A stretch of DNA of 64,000 nucleotides from Escherichia phage VEc74. Shown here piece by piece: positions 11,524-59,740 of the stretch. A model generated the notes under the pieces. The model did not search any database and had not been told where the DNA came from. It saw only the letters and a program-made list of their open reading frames with translations. Location of the stretch: the sequence record MT932213.1. One strand, given 5' to 3'. Positions within the stretch are counted from its first letter, which is position 1. The number at the start of each line of letters is the position of its first letter. The position numbers and the translations under genes were made by a program.

Positions 11524-12126
11524 TTATAGATTAAATCCTTCAAAATCAAGAGTATAGATAGTGTATGTTGAATACTTTTTGTACTCATATCTATCTGCAA
11601 TTCTAAATACACTTCCAGCTGGTATCATTACTTCTTGTTCATCTGAAACTAATTCCATATTACGATAACGATGACTATCCGGAAACTTAAAGTTTGGATT
11701 GTATTCTTTACAGCGTAGAGCTTTTATAGCATACTCCTGGAAATTGAATACCATAGGAGCTTTGAATTCAAAAATAACTTGTGTGTTATATTCTAAACCA
11801 GAAGCAAAATGTAGAGCTATATTTTTATCATATGAAGCTGATACTACTTTATCAAATGTAATAATATCAATTCCTTGATTTAATACTTGTTTAGTCTCAG
11901 CTGGAACACCTCTCCAAAGAGGTTTATCGTTTGGTTCCAAACGAGATTTGATTATTTCATTTAACCAAGTATGGTCATCTGGCTTATTAGTAATACAATG
12001 AATTAAAAGTTCAATTTCAGATAAATTAAACCCTTCAGAAAGTAATTCTTCACGAATAGAAGCACGCACCGATGCATCCATTGATTTTATTTTAAAATCT
12101 TTTAGTTGCATTACTGAGTATTTCAT
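11524..12126 (-). CDS. modA: ADP-ribosyltransferase ModA
   Basis: 200-aa ORF with R-S-E type motifs (LWRGV, VSAS, EQEVMIP); tandem with a ModB paralog. Confidence 0.75.
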   Translation of the reverse strand: MKYSVMQLKDFKIKSMDASVRASIREELLSEGFNLSEIELLIHCITNKPDDHTWLNEIIKSRLEPNDKPLWRGVPAETKQVLNQGIDIITFDKVVSASYDKNIALHFASGLEYNTQVIFEFKAPMVFNFQEYAIKALRCKEYNPNFKFPDSHRYRNMELVSDEQEVMIPAGSVFRIADRYEYKKYSTYTIYTLDFEGFNL

Positions 12127-12746
12127 TCAACTACCTCAATATCATAAACTTTAAATGTTCCAAATGAATCGTGTAATTTTTCTTTTGAAATAGAAGTTAT
12201 TCTATACTTTCCAGTTGGAATCATCCATTCTTGTTCACGCACAATCATCATTAAGTTATCAGTACGCTCTGAATCTAGCCCATCAGTATCTTCATACGTG
12301 TACTTAAACTCAGTATTAGGAGAAGAAAGTATAATATCGCTGATATGGTCAGAGTAATTAAAAGCTTTATCAGTTTTTAAACGAAGTATTGTTTCAGTGA
12401 AATATTCAGCATAAGAAAAAGAACACGCTGTATGCAAACTAGTAGTAAATGAATCTACCCTATTTGTTGAAAATACATCTCCAACCTGTAAATTTTCTAT
12501 TATTTCTTTTGTCGATTTTGATATACCACGATATAATTGATAAGGCGATTTAGTTAAATGCTTTTTAATGATTTCATTTAAATGCTTATGAAGAGCTTCA
12601 TTCTTTTTGGCTTCCATACATTGCCAAAGAATTGACTGTTCAAAGTCAGTAAATTTTTCACAGACCTTTTTATACATATCATATTGAAAATCAACGCTTT
12701 CAGCTTTTATAGATAACTGTTCAACATCTGCAAGATTAATAATCAT
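12123..12746 (-). CDS. modB: ADP-ribosyltransferase ModB
   Basis: 207-aa paralog of ModA (YRGIS, EQEWMIP). Confidence 0.75.
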   Translation of the reverse strand: MIINLADVEQLSIKAESVDFQYDMYKKVCEKFTDFEQSILWQCMEAKKNEALHKHLNEIIKKHLTKSPYQLYRGISKSTKEIIENLQVGDVFSTNRVDSFTTSLHTACSFSYAEYFTETILRLKTDKAFNYSDHISDIILSSPNTEFKYTYEDTDGLDSERTDNLMMIVREQEWMIPTGKYRITSISKEKLHDSFGTFKVYDIEVVE

Positions 12747-54987: not shown

Positions 54988-55200
54988 TCATTTTTGTCCT
55001 GTATTTACTTTATGCCGATGCACGGCCTTAACTTTATCAAGGTATTTTTCAAAATTTCGCAATCTAGTATAGTCTGCCGGAGATTGGTTGAGTGATACTT
55101 CTCGACGCAAAGCTGAAATGATATTTCCAACTTCCCTACGAATTTCATCTAATTGAAGCACAGTAAGATTGCGAAGTTGCTTTTCAGTTAATTGTAGCAT
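54988..55200 (-). CDS. hypothetical protein (rI.1 position)
   Basis: 70-aa ORF. Confidence 0.4.
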
Positions 55201-55242
55201 ATATACCCCTTTAGTTAGATAAACCTATTTATAACTTTTGCA

Positions 55243-55824
55243 CTAACCGAGCTTTTTAGTTAATTCATTCCAATGTTTTCTACACAAAGAAACATAAATT
55301 TCATCGCCAATACAGATTTGATTACCTTCTTTAACTGGTGTTCCATCTTCCATTAATCGAGCTGTCATAATCGCTTTTTTACCACAATGACAAACTGCTT
55401 TTAGTTCAATAAGTTTATCTGCAATCGCTAAAAGTTCTTTAGAACCTTCAAATAATTTTCCAGCGAAATCAGTCCTTAGCCCATAAGCCATAACAGGAAC
55501 ATTATATGTATCAACAATTCGACTTAATTGATGCACTTGTTCAGTTTTTAAAAACTGAGCTTCATCTACAAATACGCAATGAATATCTTTTTGTGCTTCA
55601 GCCCATTTATAGAACTCGAAAATATCCATATCATCTGTAATAATATTCGCTTCCTGCTTAATTCCAATGCGAGAAACGACTTCACAGACAGAATCGCGAG
55701 TATCAATAGCAGGCTTAAGAACTAATACACTCATTCCACGCTCTTTATAATTATGCGCAGCAGTCAAAAGAGAAGCAGATTTTCCAGCATTCATTGCTGC
55801 ATAAGTAAAAATTAAACTCGCCAT
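55243..55824 (-). CDS. tk: thymidine kinase
   Basis: 193-aa ORF with P-loop AAMNAGKS and a C-terminal zinc site (CHCG...C). Confidence 0.9.
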   Translation of the reverse strand: MASLIFTYAAMNAGKSASLLTAAHNYKERGMSVLVLKPAIDTRDSVCEVVSRIGIKQEANIITDDMDIFEFYKWAEAQKDIHCVFVDEAQFLKTEQVHQLSRIVDTYNVPVMAYGLRTDFAGKLFEGSKELLAIADKLIELKAVCHCGKKAIMTARLMEDGTPVKEGNQICIGDEIYVSLCRKHWNELTKKLG

Positions 55825-55825
55825 C

Positions 55826-56014
55826 TTAGTCCTTAGTTAAATTTTCTAAATATGTTTCTAAATCATTTTCAGCTTTATCGATAGATTTTACTAATTCGTA
55901 ATATGTTTCGGCATCTCCATAATCAGAAGATAATTCAAAAGACAAATCCTTTTCTAAACTAATAATTTCACCAACTAAAAATAATATTTCGTTCTTTTGT
56001 TCGCGAGTAATCAT
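55826..56014 (-). CDS. hypothetical protein
   Basis: 62-aa ORF. Confidence 0.4.
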   Translation of the reverse strand: MITREQKNEILFLVGEIISLEKDLSFELSSDYGDAETYYELVKSIDKAENDLETYLENLTKD

Positions 56015-56202
56015 AAGGAATTTATATAATCAATGAGTTCTTGTTCTTTATTATCGAATTCTTTAGAAAGTTCTTCATACTCGTTTGCACTAAAAGGACC
56101 ACATTCATTACAAACTTTTTCCAATTCACTATTTTTATCCATAACTTCGTGGATAAGAGAAAAGAGTTTGTCTTTTTGTTCTTTGCTTAAACTCATAACC
56201 AT
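56011..56202 (-). CDS. hypothetical protein
   Basis: 63-aa ORF. Confidence 0.4.
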   Translation of the reverse strand: MVMSLSKEQKDKLFSLIHEVMDKNSELEKVCNECGPFSANEYEELSKEFDNKEQELIDYINSL

Positions 56203-56420
56203 GTCACCTTTAAGCAGTATTCTTCTACATGCTGTTTACGACCTTTCTTATCAATAAAGGTATATTCAACGAATGTTCCAATGTAGTCTTTATCTACATC
56301 ATGTGGACTATTAATTGGACATTTAGTGCGACAAATGCGTTCCCATTGACGAATAATTACTGCCTTATTCTTTGGGTCATATGGATGTGGATAATGTATA
56401 TTCATAATAATGGTTCCCAA
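56193..56420 (-). CDS. hypothetical protein
   Basis: 75-aa ORF. Confidence 0.4.
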   Translation of the reverse strand: MGTIIMNIHYPHPYDPKNKAVIIRQWERICRTKCPINSPHDVDKDYIGTFVEYTFIDKKGRKQHVEEYCLKVTWL

Positions 56421-56869
56421 TCAACAATCACAATTTCTAATTTAGAGGAATACGTATCTAAAATCCCCTCAATAATATCCCAGTTCCCTTTACCTATGCC
56501 TGCACCAATCCTAGGCATATAGATTGTAGGTTTAATCAGTTTATTTTCACCGAACTCATTTAATTCTAACATACAATTCATTAAAGCGGAATATTCAAAA
56601 TGAGGTCCTGGTTGAAATTGAGTATAAAGATTAAAGCAGTAAGCTTTATGAGTCCTAAAGTATTTTTCATAAACTGAGTAAGAACCAAGTTTAGTTACAT
56701 CACCCCATTCAGTCTGTAATTTATCAGCTTCCAAAATTTTAGGGAAAGCTTTGGTTAATTGACCCGCTACGCCTGAACCCATAGTATGAAAACAATTGCA
56801 TCCATGCGCAATATTTTTACCTTCAGCGAAAAGGGCGACAATATCGCCCTTGATATATTTTACAATCAT
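56402..56869 (-). CDS. macro-domain protein (ADP-ribose binding/processing)
   Basis: 155-aa ORF with macro-like motifs (HGCN...MGSGVAG; IGAGIGKG). Confidence 0.5.
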   Translation of the reverse strand: MIVKYIKGDIVALFAEGKNIAHGCNCFHTMGSGVAGQLTKAFPKILEADKLQTEWGDVTKLGSYSVYEKYFRTHKAYCFNLYTQFQPGPHFEYSALMNCMLELNEFGENKLIKPTIYMPRIGAGIGKGNWDIIEGILDTYSSKLEIVIVDWEPLL

Positions 56870-57213
56870 CTAGTACTCAATCCTCGATTATAAGAATCTA
56901 CCAAACGGTCAACCATTGAATGACAAGCGGCTTTATCTTTCTCCTCCGCAACTGAACATTCTAAAGTATTCCACTTTTTAGCATATCGTTTTAATAATGT
57001 ATCGTTTTTGTATCTGCTTGATTTATCTCTTTCTCCGTCTTTATATGCATATATTAATTTCTGTGCAAATTCAGCTTGGCATGCTTTATTTTTCCCACAA
57101 TAATCTGCCGCAGTGCGGTTTACATATTCTCTAATTTCAGTATATGATGTATCTGCTGACGCAGAAGCAGAAAATGAAATTAATCCTATACATAAAACCA
57201 AAATTTTAGTCAT
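56866..57213 (-). CDS. secreted protein (vs position)
   Basis: 115-aa ORF with a signal peptide. Confidence 0.45.
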   Translation of the reverse strand: MTKILVLCIGLISFSASASADTSYTEIREYVNRTAADYCGKNKACQAEFAQKLIYAYKDGERDKSSRYKNDTLLKRYAKKWNTLECSVAEEKDKAACHSMVDRLVDSYNRGLSTR

Positions 57214-57751
57214 TTACTATTTCCAAAAGTTTATTATTTTTAAGGTAATTAGCCTTTTCTAGGACTTCAGAAGCATATTTAGAACCAGCTTTAACATTCC
57301 ATCCCGAATTATAAGAGGATATTGCTTTTCTTATATCGCCCTTATGTATATTTAACCAATAAGAAAGTTCAATGTACGCCCAGGAAGCTGAATTGGATCG
57401 TTTATTCAACATTCTTTTTATTTCAGCATCGGTCATATTATAACCAAGTTCCTTAACTCTCGCTCGCATAGTAGGCAAATAATTTTGGAACATTCCATAA
57501 GCGTGATGCTTTGGTTTAGATTTTAAATTAACTCCGCCAGAGCTTTCTTGCCATAAAATAGCAGCCATTATATGACCTAATCCGCTCTTGTGGATATTTT
57601 TATGTGTTTTATATTTTCCATCCTTAGAAAATTGTTCCCCGAATTGATACGCGTAACGCATGTTATCGAGTTGGACATTACTGAAAGTATGCTCGGAGCT
57701 ATGTGCCATCATTGAAATGGCCAATAGACCAGCGAGTAGTGCTTTTCTCAT
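57206..57751 (-). CDS. periplasmic lytic-transglycosylase-like protein (SLT domain)
   Basis: signal peptide plus ILWQESSG...GMFQ motif. Confidence 0.5.
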   Translation of the reverse strand: MRKALLAGLLAISMMAHSSEHTFSNVQLDNMRYAYQFGEQFSKDGKYKTHKNIHKSGLGHIMAAILWQESSGGVNLKSKPKHHAYGMFQNYLPTMRARVKELGYNMTDAEIKRMLNKRSNSASWAYIELSYWLNIHKGDIRKAISSYNSGWNVKAGSKYASEVLEKANYLKNNKLLEIVND

Positions 57752-57758
57752 GCTTACC

Positions 57759-58220
57759 TCATTGAGTTTTAATTACTGCTTTAGAAGCCTTTCCTGGTAA
57801 ACGACGACTGTTAATAATTGCCATCCTGCATTGAAGCGACGGGTCTTTGAACTTCGCATTAGGTTTACAAACTGTAAATCCAAGCCAAAGATTTCCATCT
57901 GTGATTTCTAAACGTCCAGGACGATATTCAACCCCATCAATAAAATCCTCGTCAATGTCAGGACGCGGAGGCATACTCAGGAATTCATTAACTTCTAAAA
58001 CATGGTCTTTTATTTTATGGAATAATTCAAAAACGTATGTCTCATCAATCTCCCGTTGAATTGCGCGATCAAGAAGATGCTGAGAATATTTTAGATGAAA
58101 CGATGAGACTCCTGCTGCTTTTGACGCCTCACGAATCTCATTGTTAATTTGACGAAACTCCGACTCAAAGTGACGACGAAGCTTATTTCGACGGATAAAA
58201 ACTTCTGTATTGATAGTCAT
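57759..58220 (-). CDS. regB: RegB endoribonuclease
   Basis: 153-aa ORF; size and position match T4 RegB. Confidence 0.7.
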   Translation of the reverse strand: MTINTEVFIRRNKLRRHFESEFRQINNEIREASKAAGVSSFHLKYSQHLLDRAIQREIDETYVFELFHKIKDHVLEVNEFLSMPPRPDIDEDFIDGVEYRPGRLEITDGNLWLGFTVCKPNAKFKDPSLQCRMAIINSRRLPGKASKAVIKTQ

Positions 58221-58247
58221 GTTATTCTCCTCTTAACTGATAGAAAA

Positions 58248-58277
58248 ATTATACCACAGTCAAGAGGAAAAGTAAAC
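58248..58277 (-). promoter_or_regulatory. T4-type early promoter
   Basis: GTTTAC, 17 bp, TGGTATAAT upstream of regB. Confidence 0.55.
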
Positions 58278-58279
58278 AG

Positions 58280-58600
58280 TTATTCTTTAAATCTAATCAA
58301 TTTATTCATAGACTTTGAAACTTCGGCACGAACCTCATGTAGATTTTTGAGCTGTTCAAGACGCTGCGTATAGTAAGCAATTTCATCTTCTTCGAGACAG
58401 TCCTGTGAATCTTCTTTAAGATAACGTGCATAGTCCTGGAAAGCTTTACGGACTACTTCCTGGAAGTCATCAAGACTTTGAATTTTCTTAGGAGCAACAG
58501 ATACACGACGAGGGGCAGTATAATACTCATAACCAAACCCTGCGCTTAATTGAGCCATTAGTATTTTTCCTCTGGTTGGAACACTGCACGACAAGCCCAC
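58280..58600 (-). CDS. hypothetical protein
   Basis: 106-aa ORF. Confidence 0.4.
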
Positions 58601-58860
58601 ATACTGGCTTCTTTGAGTTTCGTTTTAGCAATAGTTAACTGATCGAGGCTTTCGGCGTAATTCTTCGCGAGTTCATCATCTTCACAGCTATCAAATGCTT
58701 CCCAAAATTCATCGTATAAAGCATCAAAGATAAGTCCTAAACGAACTTCAGCGTCTTTAATAGCATTTACTTTACCGATTTTTTCGTCGGTATGTGGCTT
58801 ATAACCTTTAATATCTTCAATCATATTTGACTTCCTCACCAGTACATAAATCGTATTCAA
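58558..58860 (-). CDS. hypothetical protein
   Basis: 100-aa ORF. Confidence 0.4.
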
Positions 58861-59038
58861 CTAAACGAATAGGTTCATGAATGCCATATCCCTGAACAGA
58901 AATTTCTGTAGTAGGATAAATTCCATTAATATCACCCATGTTCCATGCTTCGTTAAATTGCTGTTCGCCTGAATTACTAAACCATTCGGCGAAAGCATTT
59001 AGCACATCTTCAGAACCTTCAATAATTATCTTTGCCAT
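58817..59038 (-). CDS. hypothetical protein
   Basis: 73-aa ORF. Confidence 0.4.
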   Translation of the reverse strand: MAKIIIEGSEDVLNAFAEWFSNSGEQQFNEAWNMGDINGIYPTTEISVQGYGIHEPIRLVEYDLCTGEEVKYD

Positions 59039-59400
59039 TACAAACTCTCGGTAAAGGTACGAGCGATAACATCGCGCTGCTGTTCCGGAGTCAGAGAGTT
59101 AAAGCGAACTGCATAACCGGATACACGAATGGTCAGCTGCGGATATTTTTCCGGATGCTTAACTGCATCTTCCAGAGTTTCACGACGCAGAACGTTAACG
59201 TTCAGGTGTTGACCACCTTCAATTTTAACTGTAGGCTGTGGCTCAATTTCAATTTCACGGGCATGCAAACCATAGAAAATTTCTGGGTCTACAAAAGAGT
59301 CCTCTTTAAAGGTTTTAGAAACGATAATTCGTGCTTGAATACCATCTTCAAAATAAATAGTACCTTTATGTGTGCCTTCAAGAATTTGATATGCTTTCAT
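59038..59400 (-). CDS. autonomous glycyl radical cofactor (GrcA/YfiD-like)
   Basis: 120-aa ORF with the glycyl-radical signature RVSGYAV near the C-terminus. Confidence 0.75.
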
Positions 59401-59407
59401 ATAAACC

Positions 59408-59740
59408 TCAATTAGAAAATAAATTTATCCAAGATTGTTCTTTAATTAAAAATGGCTCAGAATCATATGCCATTAAACTCTGTGTGATTAGTCCTTTAAA
59501 AGGCCCATCAATAAATTCCATGGTAAAATATGGAATTTTATTCATTAGCCGTGCATTAGGAGCAGTGCACAAAACTCTGCATCCTTTGAATACACCTTTT
59601 TGTAATTTGTATTGTTTGGGATAAAATTCGCTTAAAATGTTGTTATTTGCCAAAATTTCAAAATGATTCACCAATTTATTTTTAATAGTTTTTGGCGAAA
59701 AATAAAGATATTCGAAAAGCTGAGTGTCTGTCATCATTGC
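59408..59740 (-). CDS. hypothetical protein
   Basis: ORF from the internal ATG (MMTDTQ). Confidence 0.4.

What the first reader, a model, noticed from the sequence alone, without database searches (positions are those of the whole stretch)
56402..56869. Macro-domain protein encoded alongside the phage ADP-ribosyltransferases
The 155-aa ORF four genes downstream of tk shows macro-domain-like motifs (HGCN...MGSGVAG; IGAGIGKG). The same genome encodes ModA and ModB ADP-ribosyltransferases (11524-12746). A macro domain could bind or remove ADP-ribose, modulating phage-induced ADP-ribosylation or countering host ADP-ribosylating defences.
Basis: partly seen in the sequence, partly recalled or inferred. 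Interest (0 to 1): 0.45.

Follow-up and report, generated by a model that had tools for sequence, protein, structure and literature searches.

The report
T4 Tk.4 macrodomain, anti-DarTG2 factor AdfM
This 155-residue phage T4 protein (gene tk.4) is a real macrodomain, and a 2025 preprint already showed it protects T4 from the bacterial DarTG2 defence that ADP-ribosylates phage DNA, so the finding is correct but known.

Summary

The function is already published. The HIDEN-SEQ preprint (bioRxiv 10.1101/2025.11.20.689424) found tk.4 as the only T4 gene needed on a DarTG2 host. A clean knockout sensitised T4, and the gene was renamed adfM. Its enzymology was not done.

This work adds three points:
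- Tk.4 is not DarG-like in detail. An invariant Gln84 sits where DarG and TARG1 have their catalytic Lys.
- Tk.4 shares the Asn/Gln pair that mutagenesis showed to be needed for thymidine-ADP-ribose hydrolysis in SCO6735 (PMC9411070).
- The family is stand-alone: 2,759 phage records and at least 521 bacterial loci. No DarT was found next to any of the 79 loci examined.

The link to ModA/ModB is not. Novelty: already known. Interest is low.

The parts
56402..56869 (-). tk.4 / adfM coding sequence, 155 aa, a single macrodomain with no other domain
56762..56806 (-). Loop 1, residues 22-36 (HGCNCFHTMGSGVAG). Contains invariant H22, G23, N25, C26, G33 and A35.
   Evidence: Invariant in 63 phage relatives and 79 bacterial relatives. 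N25 aligns to PhiKZ AdfM N23 and SCO6735 N27, both shown by mutagenesis to be needed for DNA de-ADP-ribosylation (PMC13309987, PMC9411070).
56618..56620 (-). Codon CAA for Gln84, at the end of the strand carrying N80-L-Y-T-Q84
   Evidence: Invariant in 63/63 and 79/79 relatives. Aligns to the catalytic Lys84 of TARG1, Lys80 of T. aquaticus DarG and Gln85 of SCO6735, whose Q85A mutant is inactive (PMC9411070).
56486..56509 (-). Loop 2, the phosphate-binding loop, residues 121-128 (IGAGIGKG) followed by W130
   Evidence: G122, G124, G128 and W130 are invariant or nearly so. G124 aligns to SCO6735 G128, whose G128E mutation lowers activity (alignment).

Best explanation
The ORF is T4 tk.4, now named adfM. 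It is a small stand-alone macrodomain enzyme of the ALC1-like class, made from the minus-strand gene run regB-vs.1-vs-tk.4-tk.3-tk.2-tk.1-tk. When the host DarT2 toxin ADP-ribosylates thymidines in single-stranded phage DNA and blocks replication, Tk.4 binds the ADP-ribose through its two glycine-rich loops and hydrolyses the thymine-ribose bond. This releases free ADP-ribose and restores unmodified DNA. The chemistry is most likely of the SCO6735 type rather than the DarG/TARG1 type. Gln84, held in place by Asn25, positions the distal ribose and a water-mediated step breaks the bond; no catalytic lysine is involved. Status of each step: macrodomain identity and fold are shown here. The requirement for tk.4 against DarTG2 is shown in the literature (genetics, preprint). 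Glycohydrolase activity on dT-ADPr and the Gln/Asn mechanism are inferred from homology.
Against: No enzymatic assay of Tk.4 is on record; the preprint says only that enzymatic removal 'seems likely'. Tk.4 lacks the catalytic Lys of DarG/TARG1. It also lacks two features the SCO6735 authors tie to that enzyme's mechanism and high DNA activity. These are the 5-6 residue longer mobile loop with Lys89, and Val25, which is an invariant Gly23 in Tk.4. Inactive SCO6735 Q85A still inhibits DarT in vitro by interaction, so a non-catalytic contribution cannot be excluded. The genetic evidence comes from a preprint and one DarTG2 system.
Confidence: 0.78

Rival explanations
1. Tk.4 neutralises DarTG2 mainly without catalysis. 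It would bind and inhibit DarT2, or shield ADP-ribosylated DNA, acting as a stoichiometric inhibitor or reader.
For: Catalytically dead SCO6735 Q85A, DarG K80A and TARG1 K84A all inhibit DarT activity in vitro, SCO6735 most strongly (PMC9411070). Tk.4 lacks the DarG/TARG1 catalytic Lys.
Against: Tk.4 has no counterpart of the C-terminal DarT-binding domain of DarG: it matches only positions 2-146 of the 338-position NCBIfam DarG model. The residues needed for hydrolysis in SCO6735 (Asn, Gln, loop glycines) are invariant across 142 relatives. Most of those relatives have no DarT nearby to bind, which fits selection for catalysis.
Confidence: 0.08
2. Tk.4 tunes the phage's own ADP-ribosylation programme by erasing marks placed on host proteins or RNA-linked marks by Alt, ModA or ModB.
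For: The same genome encodes ModA and ModB. SCO6735 and TARG1 also remove Glu/Asp-linked protein ADP-ribose.
Against: From established knowledge, Alt, ModA and ModB modify arginine, a linkage not known to be cut by ALC1-like macrodomains; this was not tested here. There is no genomic linkage, with about 44 kb between the genes. Tk.4 relatives are found in 2,759 phage records against 1,010 for ModB relatives, including many genera not seen in the ModB summary. In the transposon screen the only reported tk.4 phenotype was DarTG2-specific.
Confidence: 0.04
3. Tk.4 is mainly a small-molecule enzyme, such as an ADP-ribose-1''-phosphate phosphatase or an O-acetyl-ADP-ribose deacetylase. That would fit the 'phosphatase' and 'O-acetyl-ADP-ribose deacetylase' labels in databases. 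It would act in RNA repair or NAD metabolism.
Against: These labels are transferred annotation, not assays. The only phenotype on record is DarTG2-specific. The T4 Pnkp/Rnl1 repair pathway does not produce ADP-ribose-1''-phosphate (established knowledge). The invariant Asn/Gln pair matches the DNA-ADPr hydrolase SCO6735, whereas Poa1p has Ser at the Gln position (alignment).
Confidence: 0.06

Closest known systems
T4 Tk.4 = AdfM (anti-DarT factor Macrodomain), bioRxiv 10.1101/2025.11.20.689424
   Same: It is the same gene. The protein is 154/155 identical (H90 here, N90 in T4), in the same position between vs and tk.3.
   Different: Nothing of substance. The window comes from a close T4 relative (98.7% DNA identity), not from a T4 record held in the collection.
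SCO6735 (Streptomyces coelicolor) and BT1257 (Bacteroides thetaiotaomicron), the Gln-type stand-alone ALC1-like macrodomains (PMC9411070; PDB 5E3B, 2FG1)
   Different: Only 21-28% identity. Tk.4 lacks the 5-6 residue longer mobile loop and its Lys89. It has an invariant Gly23 where SCO6735 has Val25 and Ser32 where SCO6735 has Lys34. It carries its own signature, HGCNC...N-L-Y-T-Q.
DarG2 antitoxin macrodomain (T. aquaticus 5M31/5M3E, M. tuberculosis 5M3I)
   Different: Gln84 replaces the catalytic Lys80. There is no C-terminal DarT-binding domain and no adjacent darT. It scores 30 bits against the NCBIfam DarG cut-off of 250 and 35.6 bits on the PADLOC DarG model.
PhiKZ gp104 'AdfM' of chimalliviruses (PMC13309987)
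   Same: A phage-encoded stand-alone macrodomain that counters DarTG2. The Asn (N23 there, N25 here) is shared.
   Different: It belongs to a different subfamily. gp104 is a close DarG relative: E 9.4e-25 to Mtb DarG, PADLOC DarG 132.9 bits, and it keeps the P-T-K lysine motif. BLASTP between Tk.4 and gp104 aligns only 23 residues. The two phage lineages therefore reached the same counter-defence from different macrodomain subfamilies.
Human TARG1/OARD1 and yeast Poa1p
   Different: The TARG1 catalytic dyad Lys84/Asp125 corresponds to Gln84 and Gly126 in Tk.4. Poa1p has Ser at the Gln position and acts on ADP-ribose-1''-phosphate.

Membership tests
Macro domain (Pfam PF01661) | Score above the curated gathering threshold | tested here: met
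   28.1 bits against a cut-off of 22, E 2.1e-6, covering profile positions 2-113 of 118.
Macro domain (Pfam PF01661) | Three-layer alpha/beta/alpha macro fold with two glycine-rich ADP-ribose-binding loops | tested here: met
ALC1-like macrodomain class (TARG1, DarG, SCO6735, Poa1p) | Closer in structure and sequence to class members than to MacroD-type, viral, macroH2A or PARG-type domains | tested here: met
T4 AdfM (Tk.4) | Orthology to T4 tk.4 by sequence identity and synteny | tested here: met
   154/155 aa identity, flanked by vs and tk.3 as in T4.
T4 AdfM (Tk.4) | Needed for plating on DarTG2-expressing hosts | not testable with these tools
   Reported for T4 in 10.1101/2025.11.20.689424; not tested for this phage.
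DarG antitoxin (NCBIfam NF048014) | Score above the equivalog cut-off, with macrodomain plus C-terminal DarT-binding domain | tested here: not met
   30 bits against a cut-off of 250. Only model positions 2-146 of 338 are matched and the protein ends at residue 155.
DarG antitoxin | Catalytic lysine (Taq/Mtb K80) in the P-T-K motif | tested here: not met
   Gln84 occupies this column in hhalign and MAFFT alignments and is invariant in the family.
DarG antitoxin | Encoded next to a darT toxin gene | tested here: not met
   The neighbours here are vs and tk.3. No DarT2-like ORF was found in 79 bacterial loci of the family (phmmer at E up to 1) and there is no conserved neighbour. Caveat: a single DarT2 query has limited sensitivity.
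SCO6735/BT1257 subclass | Gln at the catalytic-Lys position, supported by the loop-1 Asn (Q85/N27) | tested here: met
   Q84 and N25 align to Q85 and N27. Both are invariant.
SCO6735/BT1257 subclass | Mobile loop five residues longer than in DarG/TARG1, and Val/Ile at position 25 | tested here: not met
   BT1257 and SCO6735 carry a 5-6 residue insertion after the Gln relative to Tk.4. Tk.4 has an invariant Gly23 at the Val25 column.
SCO6735/BT1257 subclass | Hydrolysis of thymidine-linked ADP-ribose on DNA | not testable with these tools
   Needs a biochemical assay. Inferred from the genetics and the conserved residues.
MacroD-type macrodomains | N-x(6)-G-G-[VLI] and G-[VIA]-[YF]-G motifs (recalled from established knowledge) and nearest structural neighbours of MacroD type | tested here: not met

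The most novel reading that the evidence does not exclude
Tk.4 would typify a third, biochemically unstudied subgroup of ALC1-like macrodomains. Its signature is HGCNC...D49...N-L-Y-T-Q...IGAGIxGGxW, Gln-type but with the short loop of DarG/TARG1. The subgroup is spread as a stand-alone gene through about 5% of sequenced phages and at least 521 bacterial genome loci, with no DarT partner found nearby. T4-like phages would then have recruited a general bacterial macrodomain rather than an orphaned DarG antitoxin, whereas chimalliviruses took a DarG-like one. The enzyme might use a lysine-free chemistry with a wider substrate range, such as protein Glu/Asp-ADPr or RNA-ADPr, than DNA thymidine alone.
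Probability: 0.4. Interest if true: 0.35.

Novelty: already known. Interest (0 to 1): 0.15.

Why it matters
It closes the question rather than opening one. T4 carries layered counter-measures against DNA ADP-ribosylation: AdfA, AdfN/30.3 against guanine modification by DarT1, and Tk.4/AdfM against thymine modification by DarT2.

One point remains of value. The published description treats Tk.4 as a DarG homologue. Residue-level comparison shows it lacks the DarG/TARG1 catalytic lysine and instead carries the Asn/Gln pair of SCO6735. Mutants meant to inactivate it should therefore target N25 and Q84, not a lysine. Two unrelated macrodomain subfamilies now share the name AdfM.

Tried and rejected
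1. I looked for a DarT toxin next to bacterial relatives, to test the 'orphaned antitoxin' origin. None turned up in 79 loci with a P. aeruginosa DarT2 query. Clustering the three genes on each side gave no family present in more than 8 of 79 loci, and those were housekeeping genes such as ArgC, IleRS, SecA and ABC transporters. The origin from DarG is therefore not supported.

2. Two apparently bacterial homologues from Bacilli and Culicoidibacterales MAGs were inspected as possible cellular ancestors. Both contigs are T4-like phage DNA and were set aside.

3. A direct BLASTP of Tk.4 against PhiKZ AdfM aligned only 23 residues. The two are not one family below class level.

4. The promoter and terminator scan of 55000-59500 gave no more sites than shuffled sequence: 17 against 17.6 expected. 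No transcription claim rests on it.

5. Pfam found nothing for ModA or ModB; PHROGs did.

6. The Aravind-group survey of viral NAD/ADPr systems (PMC9503650) was searched for a prior prediction about Tk.4. The T4 and DarG passages returned did not mention it.

7. The CmdTAC paper (PMC11618068) mentions macrodomains only in its reference list.

Full report
**What is there.** The window is a close relative of phage T4: 98.7% DNA identity over 55000-58500 to many T4 records. The ORF at 56402-56869 on the minus strand runs from ATG to TGA and encodes 155 aa. It is gene tk.4. It lies between vs (56866-57213) and tk.3 (56193-56405) and overlaps each by ATGA. The gene run on the minus strand is regB, vs.1, vs, tk.4, tk.3, tk.2, tk.1, tk. 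The protein differs from T4 Tk.4 at one residue, H90 for N90. Some GenBank records already label it 'macro domain-containing protein' or 'phosphatase'. Because the genes are on the minus strand, tk.4 is upstream of tk in transcription, not downstream.

**Is it a macrodomain?** Yes.
- Pfam Macro scores 28.1 bits against a gathering score of 22.
- PHROG 335 matches at E 5.7e-65.
- PDB sequence searches hit only macrodomains: BT1257, Poa1p, SCO6735, DarG and TARG1.
- An AlphaFold2 model built on 63 relatives has pLDDT 95.0 and pTM 0.91.
- Foldseek puts TARG1, Poa1p, BT1257 and DarG on top.

Tk.4 therefore belongs to the ALC1-like class.

**What is already known.** The HIDEN-SEQ preprint (bioRxiv 10.1101/2025.11.20.689424, November 2025) infected a DarTG2-expressing E. 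coli with a T4 transposon library. It found tk.4 as the single significant hit. A clean knockout became sensitive to DarTG2, and the gene was named adfM, for anti-DarT factor Macrodomain. The authors pointed to structural similarity with M. tuberculosis DarG and wrote that enzymatic removal of ADP-ribose from DNA 'seems likely'. No enzymology or point mutants were reported. This fits earlier work showing that T4 lacking adfA and adfN (gene 30.3) stays DarTG2-resistant, so a further factor was expected (PMC11825919). Independently, a macrodomain of chimalliviruses, PhiKZ gp104, was also named AdfM. It was shown in vitro to remove DarT2-made ADP-ribose from DNA, and an N23A mutant had reduced activity (PMC13309987).

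**Residue-level comparison.** In 63 phage relatives at 34-97% identity, the invariant positions are G23, N25, C26, G33, A35, D49, N80, Y82, Q84, P119, I121 and G124. H22, C24, M30, T83, G122, G128 and W130 are nearly invariant. In 79 bacterial relatives, D49, N80, Y82 and Q84 are again 79/79. None of these four lies in the two peptide patterns used to fetch those loci.

Gln84 falls in the column of the catalytic lysine in three independent alignments:
- an HMM alignment to TARG1, where it matches Lys84;
- a profile-sequence alignment to T. aquaticus DarG, where it matches Lys80 of FPTKK;
- a MAFFT alignment of 13 sequences.

Tk.4 therefore lacks the residue whose mutation inactivates DarG and TARG1. 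This has a precedent. SCO6735 of Streptomyces coelicolor, and its 54%-identical relative BT1257, also have Gln there. SCO6735 cleaves DarT-made thymidine-ADP-ribose faster than DarG or TARG1 and rescues E. coli from DarT. It loses all activity as Q85A and nearly all as N27S; Asn27 holds Gln85 in the productive rotamer (PMC9411070). Tk.4 Q84, N25, G122 and G124 align with SCO6735 Q85, N27, G126 and G128. Tk.4 N25 also aligns with PhiKZ AdfM N23.

Tk.4 is not simply an SCO6735 orthologue, however. It lacks the 5-6 residue longer mobile loop with Lys89. It has an invariant Gly23 where SCO6735 has Val25 and Ser32 where SCO6735 has Lys34. Identity is only 21-28%.

**Relation to DarG and to the other AdfM.** Tk.4 scores 30 bits on the NCBIfam DarG equivalog against a cut-off of 250, and covers only the macrodomain part of the model. 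It scores 35.6 bits on the PADLOC DarG model, where PhiKZ gp104 scores 132.9. gp104 matches M. tuberculosis DarG at E 9.4e-25 and keeps the P-T-K motif. BLASTP between Tk.4 and gp104 aligns only 23 residues. Two different macrodomain subfamilies thus carry the same name and perform the same counter-defence.

**Distribution and origin.** tblastn finds relatives in 2,759 of 50,697 phage records. These include T4-like phages of Escherichia, Klebsiella, Vibrio, Aeromonas and Acinetobacter, and also Campylobacter, Pseudomonas and Microbacterium phages and phages of about 86 kb and 157 kb genome size. A scan of one genome per bacterial species returned at least 521 loci, many inside megabase-size chromosomes.

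In the best 79 loci, no ORF resembled a P. aeruginosa DarT2. No neighbour family was shared by more than 8 loci, and the shared ones were housekeeping genes. The family therefore looks like a stand-alone cellular macrodomain, as SCO6735 is, and not like a DarG that lost its toxin. Two 'bacterial' homologues were in fact T4-like phage contigs binned into MAGs.

**The ModA/ModB idea.** They lie about 44 kb away. ModB relatives occur in 1,010 phage records against 2,759 for Tk.4 relatives, and several host genera with Tk.4 relatives do not appear in the ModB summary. From established knowledge, Alt, ModA and ModB make arginine-linked ADP-ribose, which ALC1-like macrodomains are not known to cleave; that point was not tested here.

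**Verdict.** The most likely mechanism is hydrolysis of DarT2-made thymidine-ADP-ribose on phage DNA by a lysine-free, Asn25/Gln84-dependent active site of the SCO6735 type (confidence about 0.78). Three minor rivals remain:
- non-catalytic DarT2 inhibition;
- erasure of the phage's own ADP-ribosylation marks;
- ADP-ribose metabolite processing.

The gene's identity, its domain and its biological role are all already in the record, so novelty is 'already known' and interest is low. The residual points that are not in the cited papers are the Gln-for-Lys difference from DarG, the distinct HGCNC...NLYTQ short-loop subgroup, its stand-alone spread in bacteria, and the fact that the two AdfM proteins are not the same subfamily.

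Noticed in passing
55826-56014 (-) and 56011-56202 (-): tk.1 and tk.2, the two small genes between tk and tk.3, are paralogues. Both match Pfam DUF7438 (E 4.6e-15 and 7e-19), which suggests a tandem duplication. Their function is unknown.
   Followed up: no
56866-57213 (-): vs (valyl-tRNA synthetase modifier) lies directly upstream of tk.4 and overlaps it by ATGA. The HIDEN-SEQ preprint reports vs as the most strongly depleted T4 gene in M9-glucose compared with LB. It has no Pfam match.
   Followed up: no
L002 (JBOFGC010000414.1) and L003 (JBOFQK010000158.1): Contigs deposited as Bacilli and Culicoidibacterales MAGs carry Rnl1, a Dda-like helicase, PNKP, dCMP deaminase and a T4 spanin. They are T4-like phage DNA binned into bacterial MAGs. 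In L002 the macrodomain gene lies two genes after RNA ligase 1.
   Followed up: partly
window 56402-56869, compared with PhiKZ gp104 (PMC13309987): Two phage proteins from different macrodomain subfamilies have both been named AdfM: T4 Tk.4 (Gln type) and PhiKZ gp104 (DarG-like, Lys type). This could cause annotation mix-ups.
   Followed up: yes
window 11524-12746 and 55000-58500: The window does not match any T4 record in the collection exactly. DNA identity is 98.7% over the tk-regB region, and its ModB is at best 96.6% identical to T4 ModB and 92-95% to other T-even phages. It comes from a T4 relative, not the reference strain.
   Followed up: no
56831-56851 (+): A terminator-like hairpin (8-bp stem, 5 G-C pairs, T-rich tail) lies on the strand antisense to the 5' end of tk.4. 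The region holds 4 such sites against 2.0 +/- 1.5 in shuffles, so it is probably chance.
   Followed up: no
L048, L030 and other bacterial loci: In four bacterial loci the Tk.4-type macrodomain gene lies within three genes of a protein with an N-terminal Nudix-like sequence followed by a winged-helix-like C-terminal part. I judged it NrtR-like by eye; no Pfam scan was run. It might hint at a link to ADP-ribose/NAD regulation.
   Followed up: no
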